This document shows positions 962-61,286 of a DNA stretch of 64,000 nucleotides, one piece after another. The DNA is taken from NCBI GenBank assembly GCA_951406725.2, contig OX597819.1:81592001-81656000 (forward strand), read 5' to 3'. Position numbers and translations under genes: made by a program. This stretch comes from Octopus vulgaris (lineage: Eukaryota). Positions within the stretch are counted from its first letter, which is position 1; each line of letters starts with the position of its first letter. The notes below the pieces were generated by a model. That model did no database searches, was not told where the DNA came from, and saw only the letters and a program-made list of their open reading frames with translations.

Positions 962-999
962 TCTTTCTGTTGAAGAGCGTAGGCTCGAAACGTTAAAGA
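962..999 (+). ncRNA. Minimal type-I hammerhead ribozyme-like motif (CUGUUGA core variant)
   Basis: Stem I UCUUU/AAAGA; core CUGUUGA; stem II GAGC-GUAG-GCUC; GAAAC-GUU with palindromic AACGUU stem III. Confidence 0.65.
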
Positions 1000-1250
1000 C
1001 TTGTTTTATTTATATTTCCTGAGCGCCATACTAATACAATTGTTCGTTTGTTTTCCACCTGCCTTCGTCTTTTGTTTATTTTCATAAAGCTTCCCGTTAT
1101 ATATATATATACATAGAAGGGTGGCTTATTTGTAATTTTACAACCAAAAGGCAGAAATATATACGTCACAAAAGTGACTAAGGGGACTAATCAGCACCGG
1201 TATTGCTAAAAGTAAGTGTCAAAACAACTCATAGCCACGAGAAGCACTTG

Positions 1251-2986
1251 CCGTATTTGTCGGGGTATAAGCCGCACCAGTGTATAAACCACCCTTCCCC
1301 CGATTTTCGGTCCTCGACGGGGGAAAACGTTGGGGAAACCGGGAAATAACTGGGGCTAATGAAAAGGGTGAAATGCAGGATGAATACAAACTTCAAGTTC
1401 ATGATGATTTCATACTTAACAAACATTTCTGACTGCTGTCATTGATACTCATAGTTATTAATGGAAGAAGATAAAGTCCAGCTTTTAAATGCAAGAGATA
1501 ATAAGAGAGCGTCTTTTTATTATGCGTGTTTGTATGATTTATTCATATTGTGATCTTTATATTCTTTCTTGAAAATGTATGGTCCTAAAAAGGAGCGACA
1601 CTAATGGATAGAGTCTTCACTCACAGCCTAAGAACTCTTCGTCGTCAGAAGACCTCGTTGAAGACCTCGTAGAGTTGATCGTCTGCATATGCCAGTTCAT
1701 CCTCATCATTGCTAGAGACAGAAGAGTCGGGAGAGACGGCGTCGTCTTCCCACAAGATGTCATCTTCTGTGCCGTCGAGCGCGTTGGATATGCAGCACTT
1801 CAGGAAAGTCCGCTTGATGCTGTCTTCTGAAATCTCCTCCCAGACCTTCAGGACCCACTCGCAGATCGTCCCCGAGTCGACTTTCTTTTTGCGTTCGGTC
1901 TTTGCTGTCGCCTTTGGTGCATTCACCATCCAATCCTCCTAGCTGAGCTTGAGACGGTCCTTAAACGGTTTGTTTATTGCAACATCAAAGGGTTGCAGAA
2001 AGGATGTCATTTCCTGGGGATCATTGCCACGTCGATATTCAGACGACGTATCTTCGCCTTGGTTTCTTCTGACTTGTGGCATCTGAATACGTTCAGAGCC
2101 ATGTGACTCCTTCTCTGATGCAGTCCACTGATGCGCCGCCCCTACAATAACCGAAGTTAGTCACCCAAAGTGACGGCCAGCTGCAAGGTTTCCAAACTCC
2201 TCAGCAAACCTGGAAACTGAGAGCTTGAAGGCGGTTGCGAATACTCGTCTCGGCATGATGACTTGACCGCCGTTGAACTTGAAGAGCGAAGTAGATGAGT
2301 CGCGTGGAACTTGAAGAGCGGAGTAGACGAATCAATGAAGCTAATTACGGTCTAAACAATAGGATGTAGCTTGAAAGCTTCCTTTGATCATTACCATTTT
2401 CTTTATGTATTTACGTAGATATATTACAAAAAAACCCAGTGTAGTTACCAGTACTTTAAGGACGGTAATGAATTTCCAGTTGACTTGATTTGTATTCCTT
2501 CGTAGCATTTGTGATGGCGATGAAACTTACCTTCCCCAGTTCAAAATGATTCTGAATAAAAGCACTTATTTCCCCTTGTATGAAATCATTTTTCATATTC
2601 CATTTTAATTTTCTTATTACCTAGTAAATTCATTTCATCAATCACGTTCAAGAATAAATCACAGCTCTCCCTCTCTCTTGTTTCCCTATGCGGCGAGATA
2701 AGTCTTACATCCGGGTCACCGAACAATAATTGTTTATGTCATAGTCTTGGGGATTACTGAAATAAGAATATTTAAAGTTTTTTTGTTTTTGTTTTTTTAT
2801 ACTAGTTTTACCGGCAATAATTGTAAGGGGAGCTAGTACCACGTGAATCTTGGCTAATTACATGAAATAAAGTTCGCATTTCAGACCGACTTTTCCTTGT
2901 ACCCGTGTATAAAAGGCAACCCCACCATCCACTTTTCCTGGATGTTCCCGTCGGAAAAAGTGCGGTTAATACACCGGCAAATACGG
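1251..2986 (-). mobile_element. pogo/Tigger-like DNA transposon, defective
   Basis: TIRs CCGTATTTGTCGGGGTATAAGCCGCAC / GTGCGGTTAATACACCGGCAAATACGG with TA on the right flank. The minus-strand DDE_1 remnant reads TSFLQPFDVAINKPFKDRLK...ICEWVLKVWEEISEDSIKRTFLKCCISNALDGTEDD (1645-2010). Confidence 0.85.
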
Positions 2987-5655
2987 TATCTTAATGAGAT
3001 AAATTTGCCTAGAGTTAAACACAACTCGCCTTGTCAGTTTATAAGATTACCGTAGTAATCATACACTGGTTTCATAAAAGTTAAAAGTTAAAATTATAAA
3101 TAATAAGGGTATGTTCGTGTATGTGTATGTGTGTAGCTAGAGAGAGAGGGGAGGTACATACATATATACAGGTGCGTGTCTATGTGTACAGTAGCATAAA
3201 TAGATGAAAAATATTTCCGATTAGTGAAAGACCTCTGTGAACTGGTTTCTTTCTTTTGGATATAATTTGTTCGTGAATACATTCAATCCCAGATAATACT
3301 GATGCAAGAAGAACACTGTCTGACTGAATGATGCACTGGAAAATGTTGTAGGTTCTAATCTTTTGATGTTAAGTCTACATTTCTGCACTAGCGAAATGGA
3401 CGAGGTAATTTTTATCAGTTAATATTCTTGACTTCATAGTTCTTGTCAATATATTATCTGAATTTTGTTCGATGGTTTTATATGGACTGGGCTCTAAATT
3501 CTATAAGCCATCGGCGGGCAAGTTGGCGATGGAATATCTACTTGGTTGTTCAATCAGCAATCAAATTTCTCTCGAATTATTACCTATGTCTTAAAATAGA
3601 AAGGATAATGTACTTGCTGCAATATTTGAGTGAGCGAAGAGATAGTCATTGCTGAAACATCTCTCCCTCTCTCTCTTTTTTACATCCACTCACTCTGATG
3701 AAGAGAAAGCGCCCAAAATATTAGTTTCATGACAGTTAGTGATGAGCTGGTCATTGTTGGAACACTTTCCTCCAGTGAAAGGAAGAAGATACCCCAAACA
3801 GGTTTCACAAGTGAAGTTAATCAAACTCTTCATTAATTTTTCCTGACACATAAATTCATGCGGTTTAAAACGAATTCGCTTATCATGATTCTAGTTGGCA
3901 TTTCATTAAGATGTATAAATGATCATATCATTTGCTATCATCTATTTTGAGTTCTGAAATATTCCTCCGTCTTTTAGCAAAGGCCCGGAAACGGGGTGGG
4001 GTGGGGGACAAGAGGCGCAAGTGCACCACCAAAACCTTGAAAATCTTTTGCAAACTTTCTGGACCTCTGTTGGCAACCTCTAAGCAAATTTTGTTCCCGT
4101 AAATATGTCTTTTGGACAATAGAGAACAGTAAAAAAAAAGTATACTATTGGATTTTCTTAACCTTAATCTTCACGATTGTATAATCTCATTTCTATTCTA
4201 ATAAGTACACATAACTTCGAGTATCGATAGTATTATTCCGAATTGGGCACTATTGGTACTACTTTGAAATGATCATTATTATCTGATTTCTATATCTCTA
4301 TCCTCATTTAAAAATTATTGTATCAAAAGGGTTAAATATTTTGCTCATGTTTTAATTTGTAGATGCAATCTATAGAAGTAAAACCATGGCAAAGTAAAAA
4401 AAAAAATAATAACAATGAATGAATGAATAAATAAACTATTGTATTCGTTTTTTTTATGGATTGGTCAAATTAGGAAGGGCAGCACCATTGACCCTTTTCA
4501 TGGCCTTAGTGCCAGTGGGTAGAAAAGAGAAAGTTATCATCAGACTGGAGGCTTGGCCTGAATACTTGGTACAAAGTGGGCCCTGATGAACTCACCAAAG
4601 GTCCAGGTGGGAATGTTAAACCAGGCAATAGATTAAATCTACCATCCAATTTAGTTTTCAATAACTATTTGCTTCAAATGATTATTGATTTCAAGCATTT
4701 CAAATGTTTTAAGCAAATTTTAATGTCCATTATATTTTATTTTCAATTGGGTATTGACAAACTCATTTACATTTTATTTCCTGCTGCTCAACATTTGCAA
4801 GAGAAAACAAGTCTAAATTATCCAGTCAAACAAACTAAAATAATGTCAAAGCCTGGCCGCTGAAAGAATGACTCTATTTGAAGATTATGATACTGCAGTG
4901 ATAAGGATTAGAACTATCCCCTCTTAATCTCTAAATTACATCCTGTGGGGGACATTACCACAACAATATGATAATCCTTATTTCAAACTCTTGACATATT
5001 ACATGATTAATGAGAAAAGAAGATTCTTATTTTCTTGTAACCGTCTGACTTGTTCCATGTTATAAAACAACTCTGTGATTTAAATGAGAGGGGAATAGGA
5101 AGGAATGGAATATAATCAGGCTTATGAATGTTCACTTGAAATTTTATGAACCTTTCCAAAGGTTTAAGAAGCATAATTAATGATCTTTACACACAAACTG
5201 TGTTAGGAAGATTTTTTATGCAAGAAGCAAACAATACAACTTTGTTCCAATTTCAGCTTAAGTCTGAGGTAAATAGCAAAGACTATTTACTCAGTCAGGA
5301 TCATTAATGTTGTTGTCGAATTGTTTTACTTATGTCTGCTTGACCAAATGAATAGATCAATGATATACATGTTATCAATTTAAATACTGAAGGAACAATT
5401 CATTGGTTCAGCACATGACATGCAGATATATGATATCATTATTCAGTCATCATTTTAGCTGTGCTTGACTTAAGGCATAGATTTTATAGACCCCACTATT
5501 AGGGATTATAGAAGTTTGTTCCCAGGTTCAAATATCTCTTGGAAATATTTTTTAAGTTTTTATTCTTTCCATCACGGCTTTGTGCACCAACTCACAAATA
5601 TGCTCTTGCCTGGCAAACAAAATGCATTATTAGTCATTAATTTTGACTGATTCAC

Positions 5656-6281: not shown

Positions 6282-7124
6282 CAACAAGAATATTGATAGT
6301 AACTTCGAAGTTTCCGCCAGCTAACCGTCATTGGACTGTGATGTATTTAAGGTAACTTTGGCTTTATACATTATCTGTTGAGGAAAATTTTTTTCGGATA
6401 TATGGGGTTCAATTGAATGATAATTAGGTTGTATGATAGGTTGTGATGGAGAGGTGTTGTGGAGAAATTTTAATTGATTAAAATTGGGGTCATGTTATTT
6501 TTTCAGAAGTTATCGATGCATATAGAACTTTGTAATTAGGTGTGTATATTTAAGTTTATCAGCTGCAGGTCATGAGATTGTTTTATAGTGGTTCACAAGA
6601 ATAGATGTATGTAAATCAAGGGAAATTTTTTGGTCAATGGATATATCACTACTTTTAGTTAATTTTGATCTTACTGGATTTAACCTTTTGCTTTGACAAC
6701 ATAAAGGTCAAAGTTTAGTTCAGCATTTAACTTAGTAATTGAGTGTGTCAGCCTTTTTGTAATGGAATATCTAAGGGTTCATAAAAGAATGTAAGTAAGA
6801 AGTATGTTTTAATTTCTTGTTGTCAATGCTATTTTGGGCATTCCCTGTTTGTATTTGGAAGGTGGAGGTTATTAGTAGAGCATACATGCATAAATAAATT
6901 CTGAACAATAGCATAACCTCAAATTTAATAGAAATTTGTCCACGCCATCTCTCTATGACAACCTACTCTACTACCTAATTACCATTCAACTGAATCTCAT
7001 ATATCCCTCCCAAAAAGTATTATCCCAATAGAGAATAAAGCCAAGTTTAACTTAAATGCATCACAGTCCAGTGAGGGCTCCACTTGCCAAAACTTCAAAG
7101 TCACAGTCAATACTATTCTTGTTG
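6282..7124 (-). mobile_element. Decayed Penelope-like/retrozyme-like remnant with ~160-bp inverted termini carrying hammerhead-like motifs
   Basis: 6282-6440 is an imperfect reverse complement of 6960-7124. Each arm contains an acagt-CCRRTGA...RAAAC-TTCRAA-GTY motif. Confidence 0.55.
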
Positions 7125-7442
7125 TGCATGGCTGAGTGGTTACAGTATTTGGCTCATGATCATAAGGTCATGAGTTCAATTCCTGGTGCCACGTTGTGTC
7201 CTTGAACAAGGCACTTTATTCCATGTTGCTCCAGTTCACTCAGCTGGTAAAAATGAGTAATACCTGTATTGGAAAGGGCCAGCCTTGTCACACTCAGTGT
7301 CATGCTGGATCTCACTGAGAATTACGTTAAGGGCACACATGTTTGTAGAATGCTCAGCTACTTGCACATTAATTTCATGAGCAGGCTGTTCCATTGATTG
7401 GATTAACTGGAACCCTTGTCATTATAACTGATGGAGTGCCAG
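7125..7442 (+). mobile_element. tRNA-derived SINE family B, diverged copy
   Basis: A-box TGGCTGAGTGG and B-box GAGTTCAATTCC; 3' part homologous to 49270-49460. Confidence 0.7.
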
Positions 7443-7794: not shown

Positions 7795-8065
7795 GGCATA
7801 GGCATATCTGTGTAGTTAAGCAGCTTGCTTTGCAGTCATGTGGTTTTGGGTTCTGTCCCACTGTGCAGACACTGCCCCACCTAGGGCAAGTGTCTTATAC
7901 AATACCCCCAGGCCAACCAATGCCTAGTGAGCGAACTTGGTAGATGGAAACTGTGTGGAAACTCAACGTGTAAAGACCTTTTTCAATTCCTGACCGTTAT
8001 ACTAATACATCTGTTTGTTTTGTACACCACCTGTCTTCGTCTTTTGTTTTTTTCGTGAACTCTCC

Positions 8066-8113
<48 letters not shown>

Positions 8114-10645: not shown

Positions 10646-10721
10646 TATATATAATAAACATGAAGAAAATGGAGAGTATATAGATATAAATTAATTTATT
10701 AACACATAGTTGATTAAAAAT

Positions 10722-10825
10722 GCTTACAATTGTCTCAATTTTACTCAATTCTAATTACAAATTTATTAATAAAATAAAATAAAATTTGCATTTAGAATAT
10801 TATATGATTAAAATCTCTTCAGGGC
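10722..10825 (-). ncRNA. Hammerhead ribozyme copy in the 3' pLTR, likely inactivated (GAAA>GAGA)
   Basis: Reverse complement GCC-CUGAAGA-GAUUUUA...UAAAAUU-GAGAC-AAUU-GUA-AGC. Confidence 0.7.
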
Positions 10826-11580
10826 TAATTGACATAAAAGGATTGCATGTTGTTAGGTTGAGATTTTAAAACAGACTGAATAAATGAAGATATATTTATA
10901 TAAGAAAATAAAATAAACAAAATAAAATACGAATAAAACTGAATAAAACAAAATACAAATAAAATTGAATAAAACAATATAGCTATTATAGATGCATATG
11001 TCTATAGATTTTACTAATTTGTGTGTGTGTGTGTGTATGCATGTTTGAAAGAATAGATGAATTAGTTTATTTGTTTATGCTTGTGTGCATTAGTATTTTA
11101 AAATAAAGATAATACATTATCTGTATGTATTATTTCAAATAAAGGAACCATTAAAGTTGGATATACATTAATATCTAATATGCTTACCAGTAAGATTGTT
11201 AATTAATAGATATTATTAATTATCAATTATTAATTGATTATTAAATTCATGGATATAAAACAATAGATATTATCATTAATTTGAACTTACAATTTAGTCT
11301 TAATGATTATTTGAAATTATTTTATCAATTTAATTTGTATTAATCCAGGGTGTAGTATAATGTGTATCACATAATCAGGTTGGGTATTTAATATAAAGAA
11401 TTCGTGTTTTACATCATCAAAAATTGTGTTGTTATTGTTAGACCTTTATTTTGTTTATAGATTAAAAGACATGTACTATCATAACATTCAATCTAACATA
11501 ATATAATATAATATACTCTATTTATTATTTAATTTTATTGAACAATACCAAATTATATTTTATCTAATTTAATTGTACTT

Positions 11581-12132
11581 TCAAAATATATATTTAGAGG
11601 AATGTTTACAGGATAAAACAGATTCTTGTTGGTTATTAGGAAGTTTAAGCTTCGAAGTCAAGATTTGGTAAATTTTATCAATGCATAAGTTACAGCGTCT
11701 TTTACCAGTATAGGGTTTAGCATGACTAGCAATTTTCCACTTACGTTTATAATCCTTATTATTATCTTTTAGCTTCCAAATAAATTTGCTTAGACTGGTA
11801 CTATTTAATTTATTCTTATTCTTAAATGTGAATTCGTGGTTTGTGATTCTATGCTTTATGAAATTCTCAGTAGATCCAATATAAAAATAATATCTACCTT
11901 CAGATTCAACCCTACATCTATAAATTACATTATTATGCTTATATAAATTATTAAAATAAGATTTTTCCTTAAATTTACAATAACTTCTTTTATTATTATC
12001 ATTTATCCTATAATTAGTACCCATATTACTAATGTTTATTGTATTAGCTATTATAACATTATTTATAGCTTTATTGTTAAAAAGGGAGTCTACATGTGTT
12101 ACTTCCCTTCTATCTTTTGATGATTTCGTCAT
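11581..12132 (-). pseudogene. PLE GIY-YIG endonuclease domain remnant
   Basis: NVIYRC...FYIGSTENFIKHRITNHEFTF...NSTSLSKFIWKLK...WKI...KPY...RCNLCIDK...CKH. Confidence 0.85.
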
Positions 12133-12236
12133 ATCATTACTGGAATATTCAAATAGATATTCATTAAATCAATATTATTCTTATTTCTTTTATTATAGAA
12201 ATTATCTGATTTTTTTGTTATTAATTGAAGCAATTA

Positions 12237-12505
12237 ATGTATACAGTTGCTGTATACATCCGTGAGGTCATCACGGATGTATACAGCAACTCCATCATGG
12301 CTCCTTTCCCTTCTGTCTGTTTGCAGTATGGCATAGTTTGGTACGTGTACTTCTGCGTCCTCTATATCAGGGCTGAGGTGAGTTTCCACGAGTGCTATGC
12401 ATAGGGCTTGATTGCATGCAGTAAGATCTCTCAGGAAAGAAATTTTGTTTCGATTTTGATGCAACAGGCCCCCAATATTTAGTAAAAGTATTGTGGTGAT
12501 GACTG
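12237..12505 (-). mobile_element. LINE (CR1/L2-type) APE endonuclease N-terminal fragment inserted in the PLE
   Basis: LLNIGG..., IALVETHLSPDIEDAEVHVPNYAILQTDRRERSHDGVAVYIRDDL; GC content is higher than in the surrounding PLE. Confidence 0.8.
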
Positions 12506-13050
12506 TGCAGGCATATACGTTTTGTTATTTGAGTTGGATGGTTATGAAATTTACTTAATATATATTCATTATCATTACACCTTTTGTTTATATCTCACTT
12601 TATTAAGGACTAAGTTGTAAAATTCTACATTATTATTGAAGCTCTCTTCATTAGATGCAAGGTATGAAATTCTTCTCGAAATATTTGGAATTAAAGTAAG
12701 TGTTACTGATTTTATTTTTTAAGTTAGCATTAGGTTTATGGTAGGGTTTATGTGTCCCAGTAATAAGATTAAAATTAACAGCTAAAAAGTTGACAGAACT
12801 ATGTTCATTTTCTAAAGTATTAGATAGTCCATAGTTTTTAAAGTACTTATAAAATCTTTTTTATATATAATTCTAATTTTCTATTAGATAGGTCATTTAT
12901 TTTATTTTATTTTATTCTATTTTATTTTTTTATTATCTTATTTTCTTATGAAATATATTAACACCAACACATACATATAAATATATCTTCATTTATTTAA
13001 TCTGTTTTAAAATCTCAACCTGACAACATGCAATCCTTTTGTGTCAATTA

Positions 13051-13154
13051 GCCCTGAAGAGATTTTAATCATATAATATTCTAGATGCAAATTTTATTTA
13101 ATTTTATTTATAAATTTATAATTAGTATTGAGTAAAATTGAAACAATTGTAGGC
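13051..13154 (+). ncRNA. Type-I hammerhead ribozyme, canonical core, long AT-rich stem II
   Basis: GCC/GGC stem I; CUGAAGA 13054-13060; GAUUUUA/UAAAAUU stem II base; GAAAC-AAUU-GUA (palindromic ACAAUUGU); predicted cleavage after 13151. Confidence 0.8.
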
Positions 13155-13316
13155 ATTTTTATTTAACTATATGTTAATAAATTAATTTGTATCTATATAC
13201 TCTACATTTTCTCTTTGATTATCATATTCTACATTTTAAATATACCCATTATATCGATGTGATATTTCTCCATCCCTATAAGAAGAGTGCATGTCCTCAC
13301 AATAGAAAATATAAGC

Positions 13317-16673: not shown

Positions 16674-16719
16674 GTGTCACTGAAGAGGCCACAGATGTGT
16701 GAGGAAAGATTTCTGAACA
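16674..16719 (+). ncRNA. Degenerate hammerhead-like motif
   Basis: GUCA-CUGAAGA-GGCCACAGAUGUGUGAG-GAAA-GAUU-UC-UGA; stem II base is mismatched. Confidence 0.4.
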
Positions 16720-24935: not shown

Positions 24936-26104
24936 AAGAAATAACTTTCCATCTTTGTAATCAGCCTAGATCCACACACACAGTCCTTAAACAAAAGAAG
25001 CTATTTCTGAGAGTGAGCTTTATCTTTTGCAACAGATATTAGTATAAATCTTCAAGTAGAAGAAATGATAATTGTAAGTTATAATATTTGAATATTTCAT
25101 CACAAAATTTCTAGAAGTACATTTGAATTTTTTTCTTGATGAATTGTTTTGCAATGAAAAAACATTAACAATGCAAGAATAAAAATAAGCTATACACAAC
25201 GATAGATAAGTCTTTCAAGCAACAAAATTATTGTTTAGCATTCCTAATACTACATGTAGATGATTTAAAAGATGCAGCTTCCAGTGTAATAGATATAAAG
25301 AAAACAGTTCATTTTCTTATTTTTTCAAATTGTAAATCTATATTAACTGTATGAGGTGTCTGACCTAGTGGACAGGGTGTTGCACTCATGATTGCAAGTT
25401 TGTGGTTTTCATTCCTAGGTCAGCAATGTGCTTTGTTCTTGAGCAAAACACTTCATTTCACATTGCTCTAATCTGTTCAGCTGTAAATAAGTAATGCTAT
25501 GACATAGCATCCTATTCAGTGGGCATGTTGGCTAGCCCACCAAGCCTGTAAATAGGTATCACTTGAAAGCTACAACAATGCAAGGAAGCATATAACAACA
25601 TCCTCTGTGTGGCCCAAAGTTCAAAGATCATGCTTCACCACCTTATCCCCTGTCTTCTTGGGTCTACCTCTACCATAGTTTCACCTCTACAGTTAGAGAT
25701 CAGCACTTCTTTACACAGCTGTCTTTGTCCATACACATCACATGACCATACCAGTGCACACCACATCTGATGCCTCTTATGTTTGGTCAATACAAGGAAA
25801 TTAATTGCATAATAACATATGGTGTTCAGTGGAGGACAGTTAATGTAAGGGAGATAATGATTACTCCCATAGTTTAAGTAACATATCTAGTTTTGGACAT
25901 TACTTGCTATGGCACTGGTACAGAATAAAAGGAAAGATACACAACAGCAGTTTCTAGTTACCTCTTTTAGGAAAGAATAAAACCCAAATTTTAAAATTCG
26001 ATTTAATGGAAGATGTTATGAGCATTTTTGATGCAGTCAGAAACCAAATTTCAGACTTAAGTGGCATGACTCAGTACATCAACTTTCCATGGTTTGTCAC
26101 AATA

Positions 26105-26475
26105 AAATTTGTCAATAAGACATTTTAACAGAATATGATGGATATGTATAGTGATGAACTGAACGCTATTAAGTTTAAAAAAAAAAAAATGTTAGAGGAC
26201 ATAACGCCAAAGGTAGCCTATAGAAAGAGGAGGGGTAAAGGAAAGAAAAAATCAGAAACCAAATAAATGAGAAGTATAGAACGATATGTAAATTAAATAA
26301 AACATCTCATTTATTTGGTTTCTGATTTTTTCTTTGCTTTACCCCCACCCCCTCTTTCTATAGGTTACCTTTGATTTTATATCCTCCAATGTTTTTTTAA
26401 AAGAAAATTAATAGCATTCAGTTCATCACTATACATATCCATCATATTCTGTTAAAATGTCTTATTGATGAGTTT
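26105..26475. repeat. ~370-bp imperfect palindrome (fold-back)
   Basis: TCAATAAGACATTTTAACAGAATATGATGGATATGTATAGTGATGAACTGAA... is mirrored by ...TTCAGTTCATCACTATACATATCCATCATATTCTGTTAAAATGTCTTATTGA; loop at about 26273-26304. Confidence 0.9.
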
Positions 26476-26484
26476 CATTTCTTC

Positions 26485-26573
26485 ATTTCCCTGAAGAGAA
26501 GATTACATTGTTTTACACCATTTTATTCCTTTGGAATAATACCAATGATATCTTCGAAACATGTGTCGGAAGT
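26485..26573 (+). ncRNA. Type-I hammerhead ribozyme, canonical core with extended stem II
   Basis: AUUUCC/GGAAGU stem I; CUGAAGA 26491-26497; stem II GAAGAU/AUCUUC, CAUUG/CAAUG, UUAUUCC/GGAAUAA; GAAAC-AUGU-GUC; predicted cleavage after 26567. Confidence 0.85.
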
Positions 26574-41029: not shown

Positions 41030-41268
41030 CATCTTGGAACTACGTAAAGAAAAGTCTCGGGATGCTGCCCGTTCTCGTCGAGGAAAAGAAAATTATGAGT
41101 TTTATGAGTTGGCCAAATTACTACCTCTACCAGCTGCCATAACAAGCCAACTGGACAAAGCCTCCATAATTCGTCTCTCAATCAGTTATTTGAAGCTGCG
41201 TGACTTCTCTAGTCATGGTGATCCACCATGGCAGAGAGATGGAATGCCTCCAAACAAATCGGTTAAAG
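41030..41268 (+). CDS. trh: trachealess / NPAS1-NPAS3 bHLH-PAS transcription factor, bHLH exon
   Basis: (S)[67 protein letters not shown] is the Trh/NPAS3 bHLH. Acceptor TTTATTATAG|C and donor AAAG|GTATAT. Confidence 0.95.
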
Positions 41269-41975
41269 GTATATATTTTTGAAGATATATTATATTTCAG
41301 AGTAAAATATAACATTTGAAAACCAAAATTATTAGTTGCTAGAAGTTCACCTTGAAAGGACATGGTTTTCAGCTGAATCCTACTGCATGTCATCTTGGTT
41401 AAGTACTTTTTATCATAAACATGGACTGAACAACTTCATATGAATGATATTTGGTAGATGGAAGCCATATGAAAGTCCATCAGACGGATCTTTCCTGTTT
41501 AGGTGCTAAACTTAATCTGTGTCCTGGTTTAACACCACCATCTGTCTAATGGATACCTTTAGTGGAGTTCATTCTGTTGCAAGAATTTTGAGCTAAGTAT
41601 CCAATGTGAAGGTAGCCTTCCTCCCTTGTTTCCTCCAATCTTGACAGTCCTAAAAATGATCATTAGTTCTGCCCTTCTTCCTCTTCTGACTATACCTTAA
41701 AATGTTTGTTTTGTTCATCTCAGTTCATCAAATTCTTGAAAGCAGGTGCCTGAATTTCAGAGACTTGAAATGCAGTAAGTTGTGAAGTTAGAGTTAGCAT
41801 ATTTGAAATATTGCACTGAGTGGACTATGAAATTCAATTATGAAATTTTCTTAGATTCAGATTCAGATTTATTGTGCTCCTTTACATAATTCAAATAATC
41901 CACTGTACACATAATTTGTTTTATAACTTACAGCAATACTTTTATTTTCATTCAAAACATCTTCTCTTTCACAAG

Positions 41976-46957: not shown

Positions 46958-47001
<44 letters not shown>
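45885..47001 (+). mobile_element. CR1/L2-type LINE, 5'-truncated: RT C-terminal half, 3' UTR and (TTA)n tail
   Basis: SGVPQGSVLGPFLF..YIND, KYADDIKL, ERDLGI, LYTAMVRPHLEF, TRGH, FFTLRV..WNKLP; stop at 46908; (TTA)n 46958-47001. Confidence 0.92.
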
Positions 47002-47002
<1 letters not shown>

Positions 47003-47136
47003 ACTTGGGTATTTTACTAAATCACATGAAATTTTTATTGTTTACAAAATTAATTATTGTTGTTGTTTGACATTAGCAAAGTAATACTGTGTAGAAATTG
47101 AAACCACTTTCATGAAAAAAGAAAGTTTATCAAACA

Positions 47137-47296
47137 GGTGCAGGTGTTGCTGTGTGATACAAAGCTTGCCTCCTAGCCACATGATACCAGATTCAATCTC
47201 ACTGCGTGCCACCTTGGTCAGGTGTCTTCTGCAATAACCTTGAACCAACCAAAGACCTTGAGAGTGGATTTGATAGACGGAAACAAGAAGCTTGTT

Positions 47297-47334
<38 letters not shown>

Positions 47335-47810
47335 ACACACACACACACACATACATACACACACACACACATGCATGCTCGCACGCACACACACACACAT
47401 ATATGGCTGTTTGTTGACAACTCTTTCCACCTTGTAACTGTAATAATAAGCAGTTTTTCTGCCGTTTTAACAGTGATACTGTATTTGAAATATCACTTTC
47501 TTGTCTGATACACATTTGATACTTCTAAAAATGAAAACAAATGTTTATATACGCTCGTGGTTGTTACATGTGTGCACGTGCGTGTGCATGTGTTTGCATC
47601 TGTGTTTATCCTCCACACCACTTGACAACTGGTGTTGGTTTGTTTACATCCCCAGAGCTTAGAGGTCCAGCAAAAGGGCCCGATAGAATAAGTACTTGGC
47701 TTTAAAAAATATTCACTGGGATTGATTCATTCAACTAAAAATTCTTCCAGATGGTGCTTCAGTAGGGCAGCAGTCAAATGACTGAAACAAATAAAAAGAT
47801 AAAAGATAAA
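47137..47810 (+). mobile_element. SINE family C copy with expanded (CA)n interior
   Basis: Family C head and tail motifs. Confidence 0.7.
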
Positions 47811-48702
47811 ACAAAACAAGAGTCAAAATATTGATCAGGAACTGGCTTTAAATTCCTATCATTTTACAAGAAAGTGGTGAATGTTGGTGGCATACCTTTT
47901 CTTAAAGGGGATCCATTGAACAATACAAGTACAATTGTTTTGAAGCATTTAGATCCACCAACACAACTCTCATCCACAAAAAAGAAAAGAAAAAAAGAAG
48001 AAACATGAACTACAGTATTTCATTTTAAAAATTACCTCGCCCCCACTCCTGCGCACACACAGACACTTCTCTATTTTTTTAGGTATGATATTGTATTAGT
48101 ACTGTGGAATCTGTCTTTTCTGTTTAATTTATCTTTATTTTTTAATTTATCTTCCTTTTATTAATCTATAAGACTATCAGTGGTCAGCTAAATTATGTGA
48201 GCAAAATTTCTTAAAACCAGTAACAAATTTACTGAGAAAATAAGGAGAGGGAGAGGAAGAGAAAAATTAACTGATAGATACACTAACTAGTGAGAGAGTA
48301 AGTAGGAGAAAAGAAACAGGAGATAAAAGATATACCTGCAGAAAATTTGAACACCTGGAAGGTAAACTCGTCTAAGAAAACAAACCTTTCAAACCTTTGA
48401 CTTATTCTTAGTTATCTCACTAAACATTTCCTTTTAGTATCTAAATGATAGGTCAGTGGGCTCTCTGCCTATCAAAGAGAAACAGTAATAGTAGTACTCA
48501 ATTGTAGACTGAAACTAACTTCTGTTGATTTAGTCATTTCGGTCAACTGTAAACTAATCCCAAAGATCCTAGTGAAAACAAACCTAAATTAATTTTTTTT
48601 TTAAAGCATCAGCTCTAACAACCAACCCATTTAAAGTCTTTATATATATATTTTCTATTTCTCTCTGTTTATCCAAGTTATATGTGTGTATATATGTATA
48701 TA

Positions 48703-48741
<39 letters not shown>

Positions 48742-48742
<1 letters not shown>

Positions 48743-48871
48743 ATTCTTATACAAAAATTTTGTTGAAAGTGACTTCAAAGTTTCTGTCATCTAAGCCATT
48801 GCTGGACTGTTCGACAATGGCTTAGCAGGCCAAAACTTCAAAATCACTGTCAACAACATTCTTGTATAAGA

Positions 48872-48874
<3 letters not shown>
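48742..48874. repeat. ~130-bp palindrome made of two divergent hammerhead-like halves, between (TA)n tracts
   Basis: TATTCTTATACAA...CTAAGCCATTG / CAATGGCTTAG...TTGTATAAGAATA. Confidence 0.8.
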
Positions 48875-48903
<29 letters not shown>

Positions 48904-48960
48904 ATGTGTGTGTGTGTGTGTGTATATGTATATATATATATGTGTGTGTGTGTGTATATG

Positions 48961-49025
<65 letters not shown>

Positions 49026-49028
49026 ATA

Positions 49029-49067
<39 letters not shown>

Positions 49068-49080
49068 ATATATATATATA

Positions 49081-49457
49081 GTGGAGGTGCAATGGCCCAG
49101 TGGTTAGGGAAGTGGACTCATGGTCAAAGGATTACAGTTTCGATTCCTAGAGCGGGCATTGTGAGTGTTTATTGAGTGAAAACACCTAAAGCTCCATAAG
49201 ACTATGGCAGGAGATGGTGGCAAACCCTGCTGAATTCTTTCACCACAACTTTCTCTCATTCTTTCTTCCTGTTTCTGTTGTACCTGTCTTTCAAAGGGCC
49301 AGCCCTGTCATACTCTGTGCCATGCTGAATCTCCCCAAGAACTACGTTAAAGGTACACATATCTGTGGAGTGCTCAGCGTCTTGGACGTTAATTTCACGA
49401 GCATGCTGTTCAGTTCATTGGTTCAACTGGAACCCTCGCCGGTATAACTACGGAGTG

Positions 49458-49460
<3 letters not shown>
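49081..49460 (+). mobile_element. tRNA-derived SINE family B, full length
   Basis: GGAGGTGCAATGGCCCAGTGGTTAGGG...GTTTCGATTCC head; homologous to 23754-24121; (CA)n tail. Confidence 0.85.
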
Positions 49461-49512
<52 letters not shown>

Positions 49513-49636
49513 CTGGAGCAAGCACATAAATGTGAAACAAGGTGGGAAAAAGAGTACTCAAATACCAGAGGTAGAGTAATATGCTTTATTTAAAAGCAGC
49601 AAAATTTGACATAATATAACATTTATGTGACGTAAC

Positions 49637-49689
49637 AATTCTTACAGCCGTTTCCACTTCCGATGTTAGTCAGTGCTTCTGAAAGAATT
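49637..49689 (-). ncRNA. Degenerate hammerhead-like motif (UUCAGAA core)
   Basis: AAUUCU-UUCAGAA-GCAC...GUG-GAAAC-GGCU-GUA-AGAAUU. Confidence 0.45.
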
Positions 49690-50185
49690 ATGAAAATAAT
49701 AATGCTTCTTAATTATATTTAGTAAACTGTTTGAACATGAGAATTGTATTCATGGTACTAATTTGTTGGTGGATCTAGTAGGACTACACCTACGTAAGGG
49801 TCAATATAATTTTTAAAGTATTCAATTTAATACAAACAATCTTACTTTTAGGATAATGTAATGCATATTAAGTATAATTAGTAAACTGTCTGAACATGTG
49901 AATTATATTCATAGTACTAACATGTGTTTTGGACTTAAATTTTAATCACTTAAATGTTAGTGGCTTTGGGATTTTGCCTTTTCGTGTACCTATAAGGTGG
50001 AATTTTCTTAGGTACTTGTACATATTTGTTTGCCCATTATTACCACTACCCAAATTTTTATGTGCTATCTAAGATGTAAACGCCAATATTATTTTAGTAG
50101 GTTTTTTACATATATTCTTAGTTGTCTCCCCTTAACTATAAAATGTCATAGTATTTTGTTTGACTGTATTTATCTATATATTTAT

Positions 50186-50186
<1 letters not shown>

Positions 50187-50228
<42 letters not shown>

Positions 50229-50790
50229 TTAAAATTATTGTATACAGTGCTCAGGTGCACCACAACTTGTTAAAAGTGCGTATAAAGCTTATGCAGTAAT
50301 GTACAAATGTCTGGGAAGTGAACAGTGTATGAGTCAGATACATGCTTGCGTGTGTATGGAGGGGAGAAAATCAGGTGTAGTGTTGGCAAATCTCAGGAAG
50401 CATTGAAGTTTTGAAGGATGCAGTGCTCTGATAACAAACAACTGATGCCGGCAGTTTGTTCCATGCTTCAGCAGCTCTTAGCATGAAAAAATGTTTCTGA
50501 AAGTCATGGGAGCTGTGCTGTTTTCTGACTTTGTAAACATGTCCACGGGTGTTAGACAGGTGAGGTTTGAAAAGATGCTCAGAATTATTGTTAGTAAGAT
50601 GGTTAATAATTTTATGGGTGCCTGCCAAGTCAGCTGCCAGACGTTGGAGTTTCAATGTATCCATGCCCAGGGAAGTAAGGCATTCAGAATATGGCAAATG
50701 CCTGATGGAGGGTATTCTCTTGGTTGCATGTCGCTGAGTGGTTTCCAGACGATTAATATCCTGAGCAAGATTGGGGTCCCAGACCAGTGG
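50187..50790 (-). mobile_element. CR1/L2-type LINE 3' fragment, same family as 45885-47001
   Basis: LGMDTLKLQRLAADL...TRGHVYKVRKQHSSHDF; shared 3' motif GTGCACCTGAGCACTGTA; (TAA)n tail. Confidence 0.9.
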
Positions 50791-51513
50791 ACGAGAAGTT
50801 GCAGAAGGCCATAAGTGACCTCGTTACACCTATATCAAAGTCTTCTTCCCTGCATCCTTTATTTACTTACTTTTATTTTTATTTTTTTATTTACACATCC
50901 ATTGACACAGTTTTGACTTTTGCCCTTAGTTCAAATATAATTGACCAATTGTAGAGATCACTAGATTTCAGTCTATCCCATTGCAGACAATAGGTGGTGT
51001 ACTCTGTAATATTTCAGTAAGTACACTATCATAAGAACCTTATGGTATTATTTTGGATAGATATCAGCTAGAGATTTTTACGATAACATAGATACTGCTC
51101 TCTTTCTAGACATGTCAGTAATTTTCTTGTATTATTTATTATTTTTTTTTGCTAACTTCTTTTCACAACTTTTAAAACATCTCAGTTCTCCCTTTATATG
51201 GAACTAATCTGAAAATTTTTCCCTAGACCATTACTAGATCATTCTTTTGCCTACTAACTTTGAAGCCCTATGATGGAAGTTTGTATGATTTTAATATATT
51301 AGGCCTCCGGGTTTTTTTCTATAGACCATGTTTTCTTTCCTATTCCCACTTCCTTTTGTTTATTCTATTGTTATCTGCACTCTACAAGTGTACCTGCATA
51401 TCCATGCTCAGCGATAACAAGGGTAACTGATATAGATAGTAAACACGGATATGTTATCCCTTAGTCAGTAACTATAACCACTAATTCTGCTTACCTATAT
51501 ATATATATATATG

Positions 51514-51673: not shown

Positions 51674-51877
51674 TATAATCAAAATAAGCAACAAGAATAA
51701 CTTCGGTAATTTGGTACGATCGTTTTGCACTACATCATTTCATTAAATGTTGTATTACAACAGTTTTAAAAGTGCTCAGCATTTTAAAACTGTTGTAATA
51801 CTTACAACATTTAATGAAATGATGTAGTGCGAAACGATCGTACCAAATTGCCGAAGTTATTCTTGTTGCTTATTTTG

Positions 51878-51883
<6 letters not shown>
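51674..51883. repeat. ~210-bp near-perfect palindrome containing the 3' half of a hammerhead
   Basis: Arms 51674-51771 and 51782-51883; right arm has GUGCU...AGUGC-GAAAC-GAUC-GUA. Confidence 0.9.
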
Positions 51884-51932: not shown

Positions 51933-52047
51933 TATATTATATTAATAATAATAATATGACAACAAAAGAATGAATGAGAGCCCAATATTATGTAAAATAG
52001 ACGAATTTATCTATAAATATAATATGTGACAATTAGTTGGTTGTCAT

Positions 52048-52108
52048 AATAAAACTCAGAGTTTCGGATGCCAGGGCCGAAGTCTGTTCCGGCATCTCAT
52101 CAGTTATT
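52048..52108 (-). ncRNA. Type-I hammerhead ribozyme, canonical core
   Basis: AAUAA-CUGAUGA-GAUGCC..GGCAUC-C-GAAAC-UCUGA-GUU-UUAUU; same strand as the PLE ORF. Confidence 0.8.
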
Positions 52109-53040
52109 AAGACAAACACTATGAAAAAAACCATTGAAGGGAAATTACTCCAATAGGCATGGAGAAAGTAACACTTCATTCATAGAATCTGGATATGCAC
52201 ACATATACACACACACACACATACACGTACGCGCACACAGACACACACATGTATGTATATATATATATCTATATACATACTCACGTGTGTACATATACAT
52301 ACAAACACTCATATATACATATGTCTACCCATACATGCACATACACATGCATATATATCCATGCCCACATCACTATGCTCATATACACTCTCTACATGCA
52401 CACACACATACATATACGGATATACAAAACATTGATTATATGCACATGCATATGCATACATGGAAAGACGTATATACAAATAAAACACATGCGCAAAAAA
52501 ATTAAACCATAAAACATTCACATTTGCCACAAAACTTGAATATACAAATGAGTTTTATATATATATATATATATACACACAAATACACCCTCCTGTCTGT
52601 CAAACACATCTACACCTGCAGATATATAAAAGTATATAAATACGTATATGCATGAAGGAAGGAATCAAGTACAACAGGTAGAGTCATGCACTCGTATATA
52701 TACAATCATATACACCTGTATATAGGCACGCACATACACATTAGGTATATACTACACGTGTATAAGTTACACAATTATAAAGGGGGAAAAATAATATACA
52801 GAAAAAATATATAAAGCAATAAAATATATATAAGAAATATATAAGAGATGTTAAGACATATGAAAGGCTTGTACATGAACATAATGTAAAAAGCAGGTTC
52901 TATCTGTGATCTTGGGGTGGGAGTCCAAAAATGTAGCAAATGTTTTGCCATATGTGGACACAACCCAAAAGTTCAGTTCTTGAATTTAGACATGTAGTGG
53001 GGTCTAAAGAACATACCCAGGTGAGCCATCTTTCCATATC

Positions 53041-53535
53041 TCAAAGACCACACTTTCCACTGCCATTGGTATAAGGCTTACATTTAGCCAAGATCTTCCA
53101 GTGAATCTTATAACTGACACCTTTTTCTTTTAAGGACCATATATAACTGGATAATTTGGTTGTTTTCCTTTTATCCCAGTGTCTGAAGTGTAAGGTGTAA
53201 TTGTTAAACCTAGCTTTAAAATTTCCCTCTGGGAGACCTACATATTTCTTTGACGAAACTATGTCCTTAGTGGTTGTAGACTCTACAGTGGTTTCATAAA
53301 TGATGGCCTCGGTCGTACAAGCTCCATTTAGTAGGCACAATTTTTTAACTCTGCAGGAACAACCAGCTTCATTTTGTTGTTTTTGTGTAATGTGCGCAAT
53401 TATATATTCAAAGTTAGCAGTAGAACTAAAACTAATTTTTAAGTTGTGCCTATTAAAGAGCTTTCTATAATTATGATTGATTGGAAAATGCCTATCAATA
53501 AGTGATAAGAAATACTTACCTATATTAAAGGTCAC
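53041..53535 (-). pseudogene. PLE linker and GIY-YIG endonuclease remnant
   Basis: ORF-track translation contains the IIY-YVG motif, R and CxC/CxL motifs. Confidence 0.85.
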
Positions 53536-54197
53536 TTCGTGTGAGTATGGTGGTGTGAACCAGATAATTTTCCTATTCCTATTTTTCCTTTTCTTTGTTA
53601 CTGGACTAATAACAGGTCTGTAGGTTATTTCCTCGTTAAAACCACAATGTTTTAGAGCTTTACTATATATTGGGGCAACACTATTAAAAATGTTTATGTT
53701 GGAGGAGAGGCTAGAAAATCTCTTGCTAATGTTAACTAAATTCTTAAATACTATGGGAAGGATGGCAGGAACCTACATTAATATAGCTAAGTCTATTGTT
53801 GGGCTTTCTATAGGGTTTGTAAATATTTTATTTAAATCTAAAGATACATCTAGGAAATTGACAACTGCCAGGTTGGTATCTATTGTTATACTAAGATCGA
53901 ATATTTTCATCATTTGGATAATGTTCTTCCTGAACCGATCTTCTGCTGGTCCATTGGTGTTTGTGGTTAAGGCTAGAAGACTTCGTAATGGACCTACTGA
54001 AGCTTATAAACAAAATAAAATTTCGTAAGTCTTTTAACACTTTTCGACAGAAACTGAAAATGACATCAAATACATAAATAGTTCCCAAAATACAGCACTT
54101 CTTCTGATAAAACCAAGAACCTATACCTTGTAGAAAACAGCACATACTCACGACTTTTGCATAACAACATTCAATCTTAGCATAACAATAGATAACA

Positions 54198-54287
54198 ACA
54201 CCTTGGGCAAATGTCTTCTACTATAGCCTCAGGCCGGCCAAAGCTTTGTGAGTGGATTTGGTAGACAGAAACTGAGAGAAGCTGTCG

Positions 54288-57476: not shown

Positions 57477-57516
<40 letters not shown>

Positions 57517-59194: not shown

Positions 59195-59273
<79 letters not shown>

Positions 59274-61162
59274 CATTGTAACATAAAAGTTTTTTGTCTT
59301 GTATATTTTATGGAAATAATATCGAAATTATTTTTCAAAAAATTAGTTAAAACAAGACTGCTGATTATATGATAAACAAAATTATTGATTATAAAGAGAA
59401 TTGTTGCATTTTACCTGCTAGCTATCTTACGCCTGAAACCATGTTTGGCTGTTATTTCTAATTATCTATATTAGATTTTTTTATTTTTTTACTTCAGTCC
59501 CCAAACAAACAGATCAGAACTTTTCAATATTGCCCAAAATGAATTCTTTCTATCTCATATTTTTATTTAAGTTTCATTCATATTTTATTTCACCACATCC
59601 CTTCTAATAATTTTTTTAGTTTTCCAACTGCCTCAGGTAAATTGTTCCTTAAAATAAAATTCATTTATTCATGGAATTTAATGAGAAGTTCAGACATATT
59701 CTCCAGTATCTATTATTATTAAGAACAGTGAAAATGCAATGGAATGACACAGACAGTAAAGTAGTGTGCCAGAGTGAATGCTTTAGAGTATTTAGTTGCA
59801 TCCTTCTGTATGTATTTTCTAAGTTCAAATCCTGTCTTGAGCCAACTTCGTCTGTTATCCCTCTATAGTCAGTAAAATAAGTCCTAGGTATGTACCAATA
59901 TCAACTCAATCAGCTACATCTCTTATGCAAATGTAAGGATTGATAAAATTGTTAGATTGTTAGGCAAAAATCCATGTAGTATTCTGTTACAGCCCTCTAG
60001 ATTCTGTGTTCAAATCCAACAGAGATTGACTTTGTTTTTCAGGGTCAAAACAATAGATTACATGTCAAGTACTGGGGTGGGTATAATCAACTGTTTTATC
60101 CTCGCAAAATTTCTGATCTTGTGCACATATAAGAAATGTTTATGATGTGTACTGTTTAGCACCATCAGCCATCTATACTATAATGAAGAAAGCTGCTTAT
60201 TAATTTGGTATGTAACAATTACTAAAAGTACTAAATGAAAGCAATTATTAAAGGGCTGACAGTCTGGAAATATTTTTATAAATTCATGTTTTAAGAAATT
60301 TCCTATAATTTCGATTTGACAAGTTTATTGAATTTTTTACTCCAATTTCTCACAAATTTAAATATTCACTGCAGAGTATTACATTTTCATTTGAAAACTC
60401 TCTCACTTTCTCTTTTAACATTTTTATTTCAAGTTTTAATTCGCTATTTGGAAAACTAACAGTTTATTTTATTAATGTATATGTAATGTAAAAACATTAT
60501 TTATTGAATGAAAATTTAAAAAAATACCCGTATAATTTTTGTAAAAAAATTTTCAAAGGGATTTTGTTGTTATGGCTGTTTGGAACACTATAAGCCTTAC
60601 AATAACTATTCCGCAAAACCCTAACCCTAACCCTAACCTTAAACACCAGGTGTGTTTATTCTTTACCTTTGCCCTATCAAGACCGATTGTGGCTATTTTC
60701 ATTTTTAACTTAAAAACCATGGGAGGAGCCTTTTTGGTAAAAAAAAAAGAAAAACAAGTCGTAAATATTTTCAGAGTAAAAGGTGGTTTCACTGTTGGTT
60801 CTAGCACAACCCAAACCACCCTACTTTTTCACTCTCACATGTATTGATGTTCTTACAATATTTATCTCCCATTAAACACATTTTATGGCATGATGATACC
60901 GAAGTAACACATGCGTGATCCATTGGTGGAAGAAAAGCAACAAAATATATTGTAATCTAAATTTTTACTCACATCTGAATCAAGCGAAGTCATGTGTGTG
61001 TAAGAAAAAACATTTTCTAACCGAAAAGTACGCTATTATAATGAATTATCCTTTACATAACTCTTTTTTAAATCAGCAACAATTTCAGTGTAGAAGATGT
61101 TTGTAAGCCATTCAAGAACACAAAAAAAAATAGTTTCACTTCAACATCTAAATTTCATTTGT

Positions 61163-61207
61163 GTCAAAATATTTTCGTTGCTTTGAAACCACGACCTGTT
61201 CACTGAC
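61163..61207 (-). ncRNA. Minimal type-I hammerhead, G3-C8 core variant (mirror copy)
   Basis: GUCA-GUGAACA-G-GUCGU-GGUUUCAAA-GCAAC-GAAA-AUAU-UU-UGAC. Confidence 0.65.
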
Positions 61208-61241
61208 AAAACTTCATGCTGCATCACTTTTATGAAGTTTT

Positions 61242-61286
61242 GTCAGTGAACAGGTCGTGGTTTCAAAGCGACGAAAATATTTTGAC
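61242..61286 (+). ncRNA. Minimal type-I hammerhead, G3-C8 core variant
   Basis: GUCA/UGAC stem I; GUGAACA core; GUCGU/GCGAC stem II; GAAA; palindromic AAUAUU stem III; UUU cleavage triplet. Confidence 0.7.

What the first reader, a model, noticed from the sequence alone, without database searches (positions are those of the whole stretch)
962..61286. Multi-family collection of type-I hammerhead ribozymes (PLE/retrozyme system) in one 64-kb locus
Seen: at least 10 motifs with the layout stem I - YUGANRA-like core - stem II - GAAA - short, often palindromic stem III - NUH - stem I'. They lie at 962(+), 6296(-), 7063(+), 10722(-), 13051(+), 16674(+), 26485(+), 48768(-), 49637(-), 52048(-), 61163(-) and 61242(+), plus a half motif at 51772-51842. 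Apart from mirror copies and the 6296/7063/48768 group, their flanks look unrelated, so several families are present. Established: PLE pseudo-LTRs and non-autonomous retrozymes carry minimal type-I hammerheads that cleave as dimers via a palindromic stem III. Inference: this genome hosts a large, diversified ribozyme-bearing retroelement system, including non-coding derivatives that repeat libraries would not label.
Basis: partly seen in the sequence, partly recalled or inferred. Interest (0 to 1): 0.8.

Follow-up and report, generated by a model that had tools for sequence, protein, structure and literature searches.

The report
Penelope hammerhead relics, one swapped core
Most of these motifs are the well-known self-cutting RNA tags left by broken Penelope-type jumping genes, but one very abundant short repeat carries a version with two catalytic letters swapped, a change I found in print only as a laboratory mutant, and it can be tested directly.

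Summary
The motifs are real but uneven. Of the 12 listed full motifs, 3 have an exact hammerhead core with all stems (13054+, 26491+, 52103-; 0.07 per shuffled window). One has an intact G3-C8 swapped core (61246+), two carry one core lesion, two are damaged mirror copies, and four are decayed. They come from about 10 insertions of about 9 families, not a functional cluster. Two insertions sit downstream of Penelope-like RT/GIY-YIG remnants. Six are tail-out inverted or fold-back structures, and 8 of 10 end near microsatellites. Related PLE loci carry the same ribozyme type. No motif lies in a tandem array, so 'retrozyme' is not supported. All of this is known PLE biology. The new point is the 61.2-kb element: public contigs show a very high-copy short repeat in three organism labels, in which G3-C8 is the family state and two of the three majority differences inside or adjoining the motif add stem pairs. 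I found natural U3-A8 in print, but G3-C8 only as an engineered rescue mutant; Lünse 2017 was not readable. Cleavage is untested, and this family's link to a PLE is only inferred.

The parts
962..999 (+). Minimal type-I hammerhead: 5-bp stem I, extra nucleotide between 9 and 10.1, 4-bp stem II, 4-nt palindrome; one core lesion (A6U)
   Evidence: C, 56; its 3' tail has an 80% relative at 7987-8077
6282..7124 (.). One old tail-out inverted insertion (arms 80% identical) holding decayed family-A motifs 6334- and 7068+ (U4C, G5A and more)
10649..13227 (-). 5'-truncated PLE with an inverted terminal repeat; arms 92% identical
11575..12875 (-). Broken PLE ORF remnant (end of the RT, and the endonuclease)
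   Evidence: hmmsearch with 121 related proteins, domain E 1.8e-26 and 1.7e-9
10722..10825 (-). Downstream pLTR hammerhead, damaged (A14G, one stem I mismatch)
13051..13154 (+). Hammerhead with exact core, long AT-rich stem II, 8-nt palindrome, GUA site; in the inverted pLTR
16676..16718 (+). Degenerate candidate: exact core and GAAA, base of stem II unpaired; weakest of the set
   Evidence: found by none of descriptors A-D; no relative in the window
26101..26479 (.). Fold-back of the sequence upstream of the 26491 motif (arms 87% identical); the left arm stops before the ribozyme
26485..26573 (+). Best-preserved hammerhead: exact core, 6-bp stems I and II, 8-nt self-complementary stem III, GUC site
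48740..48876 (.). Palindromic family-A insertion between TA repeats; decayed motif 48805- and a mirror arm that starts inside the core
49635..49691 (-). Hammerhead-like motif with a U3-A8 pair, 8-bp stem I and 8-nt self-complementary stem III; G5C lesion
   Evidence: C, 56
51674..51883 (.). Near-perfect palindrome (98%) of a 3' half hammerhead (GAAA at 51831+); no 5' core present
52047..52109 (-). Hammerhead with exact core, GC-rich stem II with one unpaired C before GAAA, 9-nt palindrome; 3' pLTR of the PLE upstream
52954..53976 (-). Broken PLE ORF (RT C-terminal half, Cys-rich linker, endonuclease)
   Evidence: 44% identity over 307 aa to P0001; domain E 2e-91
53973..54198 (+). Inverted N-terminal piece of the same kind of ORF (5' inversion)
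61082..61342 (.). Palindromic insertion of two copies (96% identical over the aligned arms) of a high-copy short repeat
61163..61207 (-). Mirror copy of the G3-C8 motif with one stem II lesion
61242..61286 (+). Minimal type-I hammerhead layout with a G3-C8 core, extra nucleotide, G10.1-C11.1 pair, 6-nt AU palindrome, UUU site
   Evidence: B, 56, 57; family state
41037..41270 (+). Host exon: bHLH domain of an NPAS3/trachealess-like gene (context, not part of the system)
   Evidence: NPAS3 E 1.7e-37

Best explanation
The motifs are the minimal type-I hammerheads carried in the pseudo-LTRs of Penelope-like retroelements. About 10 independent, heavily 5'-truncated insertions of about 9 families have accumulated here. 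Mechanism: a PLE transcript is copied by its RT/GIY-YIG protein at a nicked AT-rich target, starting a short way downstream of the ribozyme (published for another PLE; inferred here). Synthesis often aborts or folds back, leaving a short pLTR piece with an inverted partner (layout shown; cause inferred). In an intact tandem transcript, two ribozymes would pair through their palindromic stem III, with protein help, and cut slowly (published; not tested here). In this locus the copies are single or on opposite strands and mostly mutated, so they are probably silent. The 61.2-kb repeat is most likely a short non-autonomous member of this system whose core pair is G3-C8 (family state shown; cleavage and PLE link inferred, about 0.55).
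For: Exact-core motifs: 3 against 0.07 by chance. Features not fully selected for also appear: all 3 strict hits have fully self-complementary stem III although only two pairs were required, and G10.1-C11.1 occurs in 967, 7068, 26491, 52103 and 61246. PLE ORF remnants lie 750-850 nt upstream of two motifs on the same strand. Six tail-out inverted structures match the published PLE layout. A microsatellite lies within 250 nt downstream for 11 of 15 arms (8 of 10 insertions), against 17% of random positions. Of 6 related PLE loci, 3 carry an exact-core palindromic hammerhead 290-340 nt after the ORF match, and one has an inverted upstream copy. For the 61.2-kb family.
Against: Only 2 of 10 insertions have a detectable ORF remnant; the other 8 are assigned by architecture alone. 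Rfam finds no hammerhead. With one mismatch allowed, background is substantial (C, D). The 61.2-kb pair is about 2 kb from any microsatellite, seems to have a fixed 5' end rather than ragged truncation, and its palindrome gives almost no duplex energy (-0.2 kcal/mol). Its window copy prefers a slipped stem II register (pair probability 0.04). No cleavage or expression data were obtained. Three of the 6 related loci showed no hit (one lacks the ORF end; one ends 300 nt after it).
Confidence: 0.85

Rival explanations
1. Active non-LTR retrozyme system: tandem 150-450 nt units that self-cleave and circularise.
For: Short, non-coding, high-copy ribozyme-bearing repeats exist here, and retrozymes occur in molluscs and leave solo monomers.
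Against: No motif overlaps any of the 10 TRF rows with period >=30; no same-strand tandem pair among the listed motifs; ribozymes are of the minimal or palindromic PLE type; family copies seem to start about 20 nt upstream of stem I, not at the cleavage site.
Confidence: 0.07
2. The 61.2-kb family is not a ribozyme. It is the end of a SINE-, MITE- or Helentron-like element whose GC hairpin and AT palindrome mimic a hammerhead, so G3-C8 is coincidence. This concerns that family only; the confidence is for that family.
For: Fixed 5' end with A/T-rich flank (table 7); no ORF nearby; no microsatellite target; AU-only palindrome and UUU site; the extra nucleotide is G, outside the published >80% consensus H.
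Against: A compact strict descriptor allowing any 3-8 pair hit once in 300 shuffled windows and once in the real one (tuned after seeing the motif). The family majority adds a pair to stem II and to stem I. One contig changes N7 while keeping G3-C8 (table 5c). The published oyster PLE ribozyme also has a UUU site. The copies sit tail-out like the PLE neighbours.
Confidence: 0.35
3. The collection is mostly pattern-matching noise in AT-rich, repeat-rich DNA.
For: No Rfam hit; relaxed descriptors give 12-32 hits in shuffles (D, E); 16680 has no independent support.
Against: Strict hits far exceed shuffles (0 of 40 reach 3 or 5, A, B); two sit in PLE 3' ends; related PLE loci repeat the pattern.
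Confidence: 0.04
4. The sense-strand ribozymes (13054, 26491, 61246) have been co-opted to cut or regulate the NPAS3/trachealess-like pre-mRNA.
For: They lie on the same strand as the bHLH exon, possibly in introns (gene extent not determined).
Against: Monomer stem III gives no stabilisation. 13054 and 61246 would be sequestered by their mirror arms (-125 and -79 kcal/mol; hairpin z -22). Neighbouring copies decay freely.
Confidence: 0.04

Closest known systems
Minimal hammerheads (min-HHR) of metazoan Penelope-like elements (Cervera and De la Peña 2014, PMC4209133)
   Same: Type I, short stem I, palindromic 15/16 region, G10.1-C11.1, often an extra nucleotide after A9; many families per genome; mostly single or opposite-strand copies from truncated PLEs; U3-A8 variant known.
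   Different: None of the 56 representatives in their Fig. S3 has G at position 3; two motifs here have a 58-79 nt stem II region; no cephalopod is in their set.
EN+ PLEs with a Cys-rich RT-EN linker (Neptune/Nematis type; Craig et al. 2021, PMC8557442)
   Same: C-terminal GIY-YIG-type endonuclease after the RT, Cys-rich linker, 5' truncation, inverted 5' copy, microsatellite-associated insertion.
   Different: ORFs here are broken remnants; the clade was not placed on a tree.
Poseidon PLE of Anolis (Frangieh et al. 2024, PMC11167929)
   Same: pLTR hammerhead; element ends a short way beyond the cleavage site; the C3G/G8C double mutant partly restores cleavage.
   Different: There G3-C8 is an engineered mutant; here it is the natural majority state of a repeat family.
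Non-LTR retrozymes (Cervera and De la Peña 2020, PMC7229834; Li et al. 2026 preprint)
   Same: Non-coding, type-I hammerhead, probably PLE-derived, solo copies occur.
   Different: They are defined by tandem units and circular RNA; none is seen here.
Natural hammerhead core variants (Perreault et al. 2011, PMC3088659)
   Same: Natural covariation of the 3-8 pair (U3-A8); U4C is tolerated, which fits the likely ancestral state of family A.
   Different: G3-C8 is not among the variants in the section and passages read.

Membership tests
Type-I hammerhead (13054, 26491, 52103) | CUGANGA and GAAA core, A15.1-U16.1, H17, stems I and II | tested here: met
   A, 56
Type-I hammerhead (61246 family) | Canonical C3-G8 identity | tested here: not met
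   G3-C8 in both window arms and in the family majority
Type-I hammerhead (61246 family) | Watson-Crick 3-8 pair with U4, G5, A6, A9, GAAA and stems I and II | tested here: met
   B, 44, 57
Type-I hammerhead (family A: 6334, 7068, 48805) | Intact core | tested here: not met
   G5A in 3 of 3 full copies plus further changes
Type-I hammerhead (all) | Self-cleavage 3' of N17 | not testable with these tools
   no RNA holder listed; contigs cannot show RNA ends
Type-I hammerhead (all) | Match to an Rfam hammerhead model | tested here: not met
   none among 150 of 153 matches at E<=10
PLE min-HHR | Palindromic stem III too weak for a monomer | tested here: met
   Self-complementary in 6 of 6 motifs evaluated; monomer pairing changes the energy by -0.2 to +5.4 kcal/mol
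PLE min-HHR | Covariation of stems across genomic copies | tested here: inconclusive
   Only the 61.2-kb family was laid; the majority letters improve pairing, but no two-sided change was shown
Penelope-like element | RT plus C-terminal GIY-YIG ORF upstream of the ribozyme (10.6-13.2 kb and 52-54 kb insertions) | tested here: met
   relative P0049 hits Pfam GIY-YIG; the window remnants themselves have no Pfam hit
Penelope-like element | ORF link for the other 8 insertions, including the G3-C8 family | tested here: inconclusive
   no domain hit near them; expected for short truncations
Penelope-like element | pLTR with an inverted 5'-truncated copy | tested here: met
   6 inverted structures
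Penelope-like element | Clade placement by RT phylogeny | not tested
   only the Cys-rich linker was noted
Non-LTR retrozyme | At least two head-to-tail units, each with a hammerhead | tested here: not met
   (window only)
Non-LTR retrozyme | Expression as circular RNA | not testable with these tools
   one search listed no recorded RNA holder

The most novel reading that the evidence does not exclude
A short non-autonomous repeat with on the order of 10^4 copies per genome, shared by several related species, carries a functional hammerhead whose catalytic 3-8 pair is naturally flipped to G3-C8, the classic laboratory rescue mutant. Because PLE reverse transcription starts internally and prefers uncleaved RNA, a slowed ribozyme would favour copying the short piece from the transcript start to the internal start site. 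That would explain the fixed 5' end and the huge copy number, and would make this a SINE-like parasite of PLE machinery tuned by a weakened ribozyme.
Probability: 0.3. Interest if true: 0.62.

Novelty: new variant of a known kind. Interest (0 to 1): 0.4.

Why it matters
The bulk of the finding is ordinary: it extends known PLE ribozymes to another invertebrate genome and shows that Rfam misses them. The G3-C8 family matters if it cleaves. It would be natural evolutionary confirmation of the 3-8 tertiary pair by a full transversion swap, it would show that CUGANGA/UUGANAA descriptors undercount ribozymes by whole high-copy families, and it would offer a test of the open question of what PLE hammerheads are for, since a family with a weakened core seems to have spread very well.

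Tried and rejected
No whole genome is held, so no genome-wide clustering or R-scape-type test was possible. Rfam gave only microRNA-like hits on microsatellites and palindromes, and other low-scoring families. The MAFFT alignment of nine motifs was not structurally in register, so no covariance model was built. The metagenome scan with a short G3-C8 pattern gave 1 hit in 67% GC bacterial-type sequence with no window or PLE similarity; treated as chance. The viral collection held no PLE relative (0 of 105 candidate stretches). No RNA holder was listed; X23 is only guessed to be RNA and is not used as evidence of expression. Earlier-findings look-ups returned nothing. Extra descriptor hits (44822, 20938, 17910, 63937 and others) were rejected as background-level. 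The inverted pair at 46495-50784 is a LINE-type RT, not a PLE. Lünse et al. 2017 is not held; one supplement file of PMC4209133 could not be searched; the octopus repeat library is deposited outside the paper and its supplement was not opened.
Full report
Setting. The window is AT-rich animal DNA full of microsatellites and short repeats. It holds a bHLH exon closest to NPAS3, two LINE-type RT ORFs and two broken ORFs related to RT plus endonuclease proteins. That it is an octopus genome is my recollection from the look of its repeats; no call names the organism. No whole genome was available.

Check of the observation. All listed sites exist. A descriptor with exact CUGANGA, GAAA, stems I and II of at least 3 bp and a self-complementary stem III finds 3 sites, all among the 12 listed (core starts 13054+, 26491+, 52103-). 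The mean in 40 block-wise dinucleotide shuffles is 0.07, with none reaching 3, and the reversed sequence gives 0 (A). With any Watson-Crick 3-8 pair there are 5 sites against 0.55; one is the listed 61246+ (G3-C8) and one an unlisted AT-only hit (B). One mismatch adds 967+ (A6U) and 49683- (U3-A8 with G5C), but background rises to 2.7 (1 of 20 shuffles reach 6) or 12.0 against 18 (C, D). The remaining six parse only by hand. 10822- and 61203- are damaged mirrors of intact copies; 6334-, 7068+ and 48805- carry G5A and up to three more core changes, several of CpG-decay type; 16680+ has no support beyond its core. Rfam gave no hammerhead among 150 of 153 matches listed at E<=10.

Anatomy. Self-comparison shows that the sites belong to about 10 insertions of about 9 families. 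Six are tail-out inverted or fold-back structures, with arm identities of 186/233, 232/253, 153/176, 44/57, 95/97 and 79/82. A profile of 121 related proteins finds ORF remnants at 12875-11575 and 53976-52954, each 750-850 nt upstream of a motif on the same strand, plus an inverted N-terminal piece at 53973-54198. The reversed control scored at best E 0.39, and nothing significant lies near the other eight insertions. The window remnants have no Pfam hit themselves; 1 of 4 relatives scanned hits GIY-YIG. A microsatellite lies within 250 nt downstream for 11 of 15 arms (8 of 10 insertions), against 17% of random positions; arms are not independent. None of the 10 TRF rows with period >=30 overlaps a motif. 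Six related loci came from the prokaryote genome collection, probably as contaminating animal DNA (inference). Three carry an exact-core palindromic hammerhead 290-340 nt after the ORF match, and L004 also has an inverted upstream copy; three showed none.

The 61.2-kb family. I laid contigs of four runs (three organism labels) at 80% likeness on 61196-61795. Across that stretch, which also holds other repeats, 4932, 2302, 3080 and 362 records were laid. Summed depth over the motif is 1.1-2.0 million in X1, against 40-64 for single listed contigs; the ratio is about 1-5 x 10^4 in X1, X8 and X13. The tool warns that depth is no copy number, so this only says 'very high copy'. The majority differences shown in or next to the motif are 61258 T>C (96% of depth in X1; a U-G pair of stem II becomes C-G), 61262 T>C (87%; loop II) and 61287 C>A (81% in X1 and 87% in X13, but 65% in X8 and 19% in X23; adds a pair to stem I). 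No row is shown for G3 (61246) or C8 (61251); 150 rows are hidden. The tally of change types bounds this: X23 has a single G>C place, which is 61715, and X8 has no C>G place. So reversion to C3 or to G8 is under 5% in those runs. One contig changes N7 and keeps G3-C8 (table 5c). Loose ends share about 15 nt upstream of 61238 and then diverge (agreement about 0.5), which suggests a fixed 5' end about 20 nt before stem I. A compact strict descriptor hit once in 300 shuffles and once in the real window, but it was tuned after seeing the motif. Against a ribozyme or PLE reading: no ORF link, no microsatellite target, an AU-only palindrome with duplex energy -0.2 kcal/mol, and a slipped stem II in the window copy.

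Mechanism. Shown: motif anatomy, ORF linkage for two insertions, inverted layouts, decay, and the family state of G3-C8. From papers: PLE pLTRs carry minimal hammerheads that cleave poorly and as dimers, occur by the thousand in many families, often as single or opposite-strand copies, and include a U3-A8 variant (PMC4209133; parts 1-2 of 4 of the text and parts 1-2 of 3 of supplement 2 read). PLE insertions are 5'-truncated, often with an inverted copy (PMC8557442; passages and introduction). In the Anolis PLE, reverse transcription starts internally downstream of the ribozyme, the ribozyme needs protein, cleavage is not needed for insertion, and C3G/G8C partly rescues activity (PMC11167929; parts 1-2 of 4). 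Inferred: these copies are products of aborted or folded-back cDNA synthesis and are now silent. Monomer stem III adds no stability, partners lie on opposite strands, and in a plus-strand transcript 13054 and 61246 would be locked in long duplexes with their mirror arms.

Comparison and novelty. Retrozymes are defined by tandem units and circular RNA (PMC7229834, passages; 2026 preprint, parts 1-2 of 5); the tandem feature is not met in this window. PLEs are already known as an abundant class in Octopus vulgaris (PMC13282606, parts 1-2 of 3; PMC8967140, passages), and Rfam hammerheads were counted in giant squid (PMC6962438, passages). For natural G3-C8 I searched full text. I found natural U3-A8 and U4C (PMC3088659, section 8 and passages) and G3-C8 only as an engineered variant. 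All 56 representatives in Fig. S3 of PMC4209133 start with C or U at position 3. Passages of PMC6765202, PMC7151607 and PMC6155905 added no G3-C8 case. Lünse et al. 2017, the largest survey of PLE hammerhead variants, was not held and may already list it; most subscription papers are outside the library.

Verdict. The finding is largely known PLE biology with an overstated count and an unsupported retrozyme label. One high-copy family with a naturally swapped 3-8 pair is a plausible new variant that is cheap to test. Interest 0.4.

Noticed in passing
window 41037-41270 (+): bHLH exon of an NPAS3/trachealess-like gene; much of the window may be intronic, in which case the palindromic insertions would form long double-stranded RNA (possible editing substrates).
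   Followed up: partly
window 27665-29959 (-): 765-codon open RT frame of an RTE-like LINE (family name recalled), interrupted at its 5' side by a long TA array.
   Followed up: partly
window 45817-47003 and 50185-50823: Two inverted copies (78% identical) of the 3' part of another LINE-type RT, 3.5 kb apart.
   Followed up: partly
window 12240-12480 (-): A more GC-rich piece that looks like a LINE endonuclease fragment (by eye) is inserted in the PLE remnant; it includes a 47-nt palindrome at 12245-12291.
   Followed up: no
window 53973-54198 (+): The inverted ORF piece encodes profile positions 73-148, not the part adjacent to the break at 353; unusual for simple twin priming.
   Followed up: no
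window 51674-51883 and 48740-48876: Both palindromes turn around inside the ribozyme (stem II region or core), suggesting that ribozyme hairpins trigger snap-back of the cDNA.
   Followed up: no
window 6282-6292, 7114-7124, 51858-51868: Family A and the unrelated 51.8-kb half motif share the same 11-nt word about 15-25 nt after the cleavage site; possibly an RT start or binding signal.
   Followed up: no
window 7987-8077 (+): Second copy of the 967 element's 3' tail, truncated about at the ribozyme's GAAA and ending in a TA/TG repeat.
   Followed up: partly
window 63859-63997: Another self-inverted repeat (71%) with a weak descriptor hit at 63937; unexplained.
   Followed up: no
window 61350-61760: Further high-copy repeats next to the G3-C8 element, with an inverted partner at 60677-60887; possibly a MITE into which the palindrome inserted.
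   Followed up: no
L002-L007: Six PLE loci lie in prokaryote genome records, probably host DNA contamination; L004 has three hammerheads, two identical and flanking the ORF region.
   Followed up: partly
window 7126-7189: tRNA-like head (Rfam 25 bits, below cut-off) of a SINE-like repeat directly after the 7068 motif.
   Followed up: no
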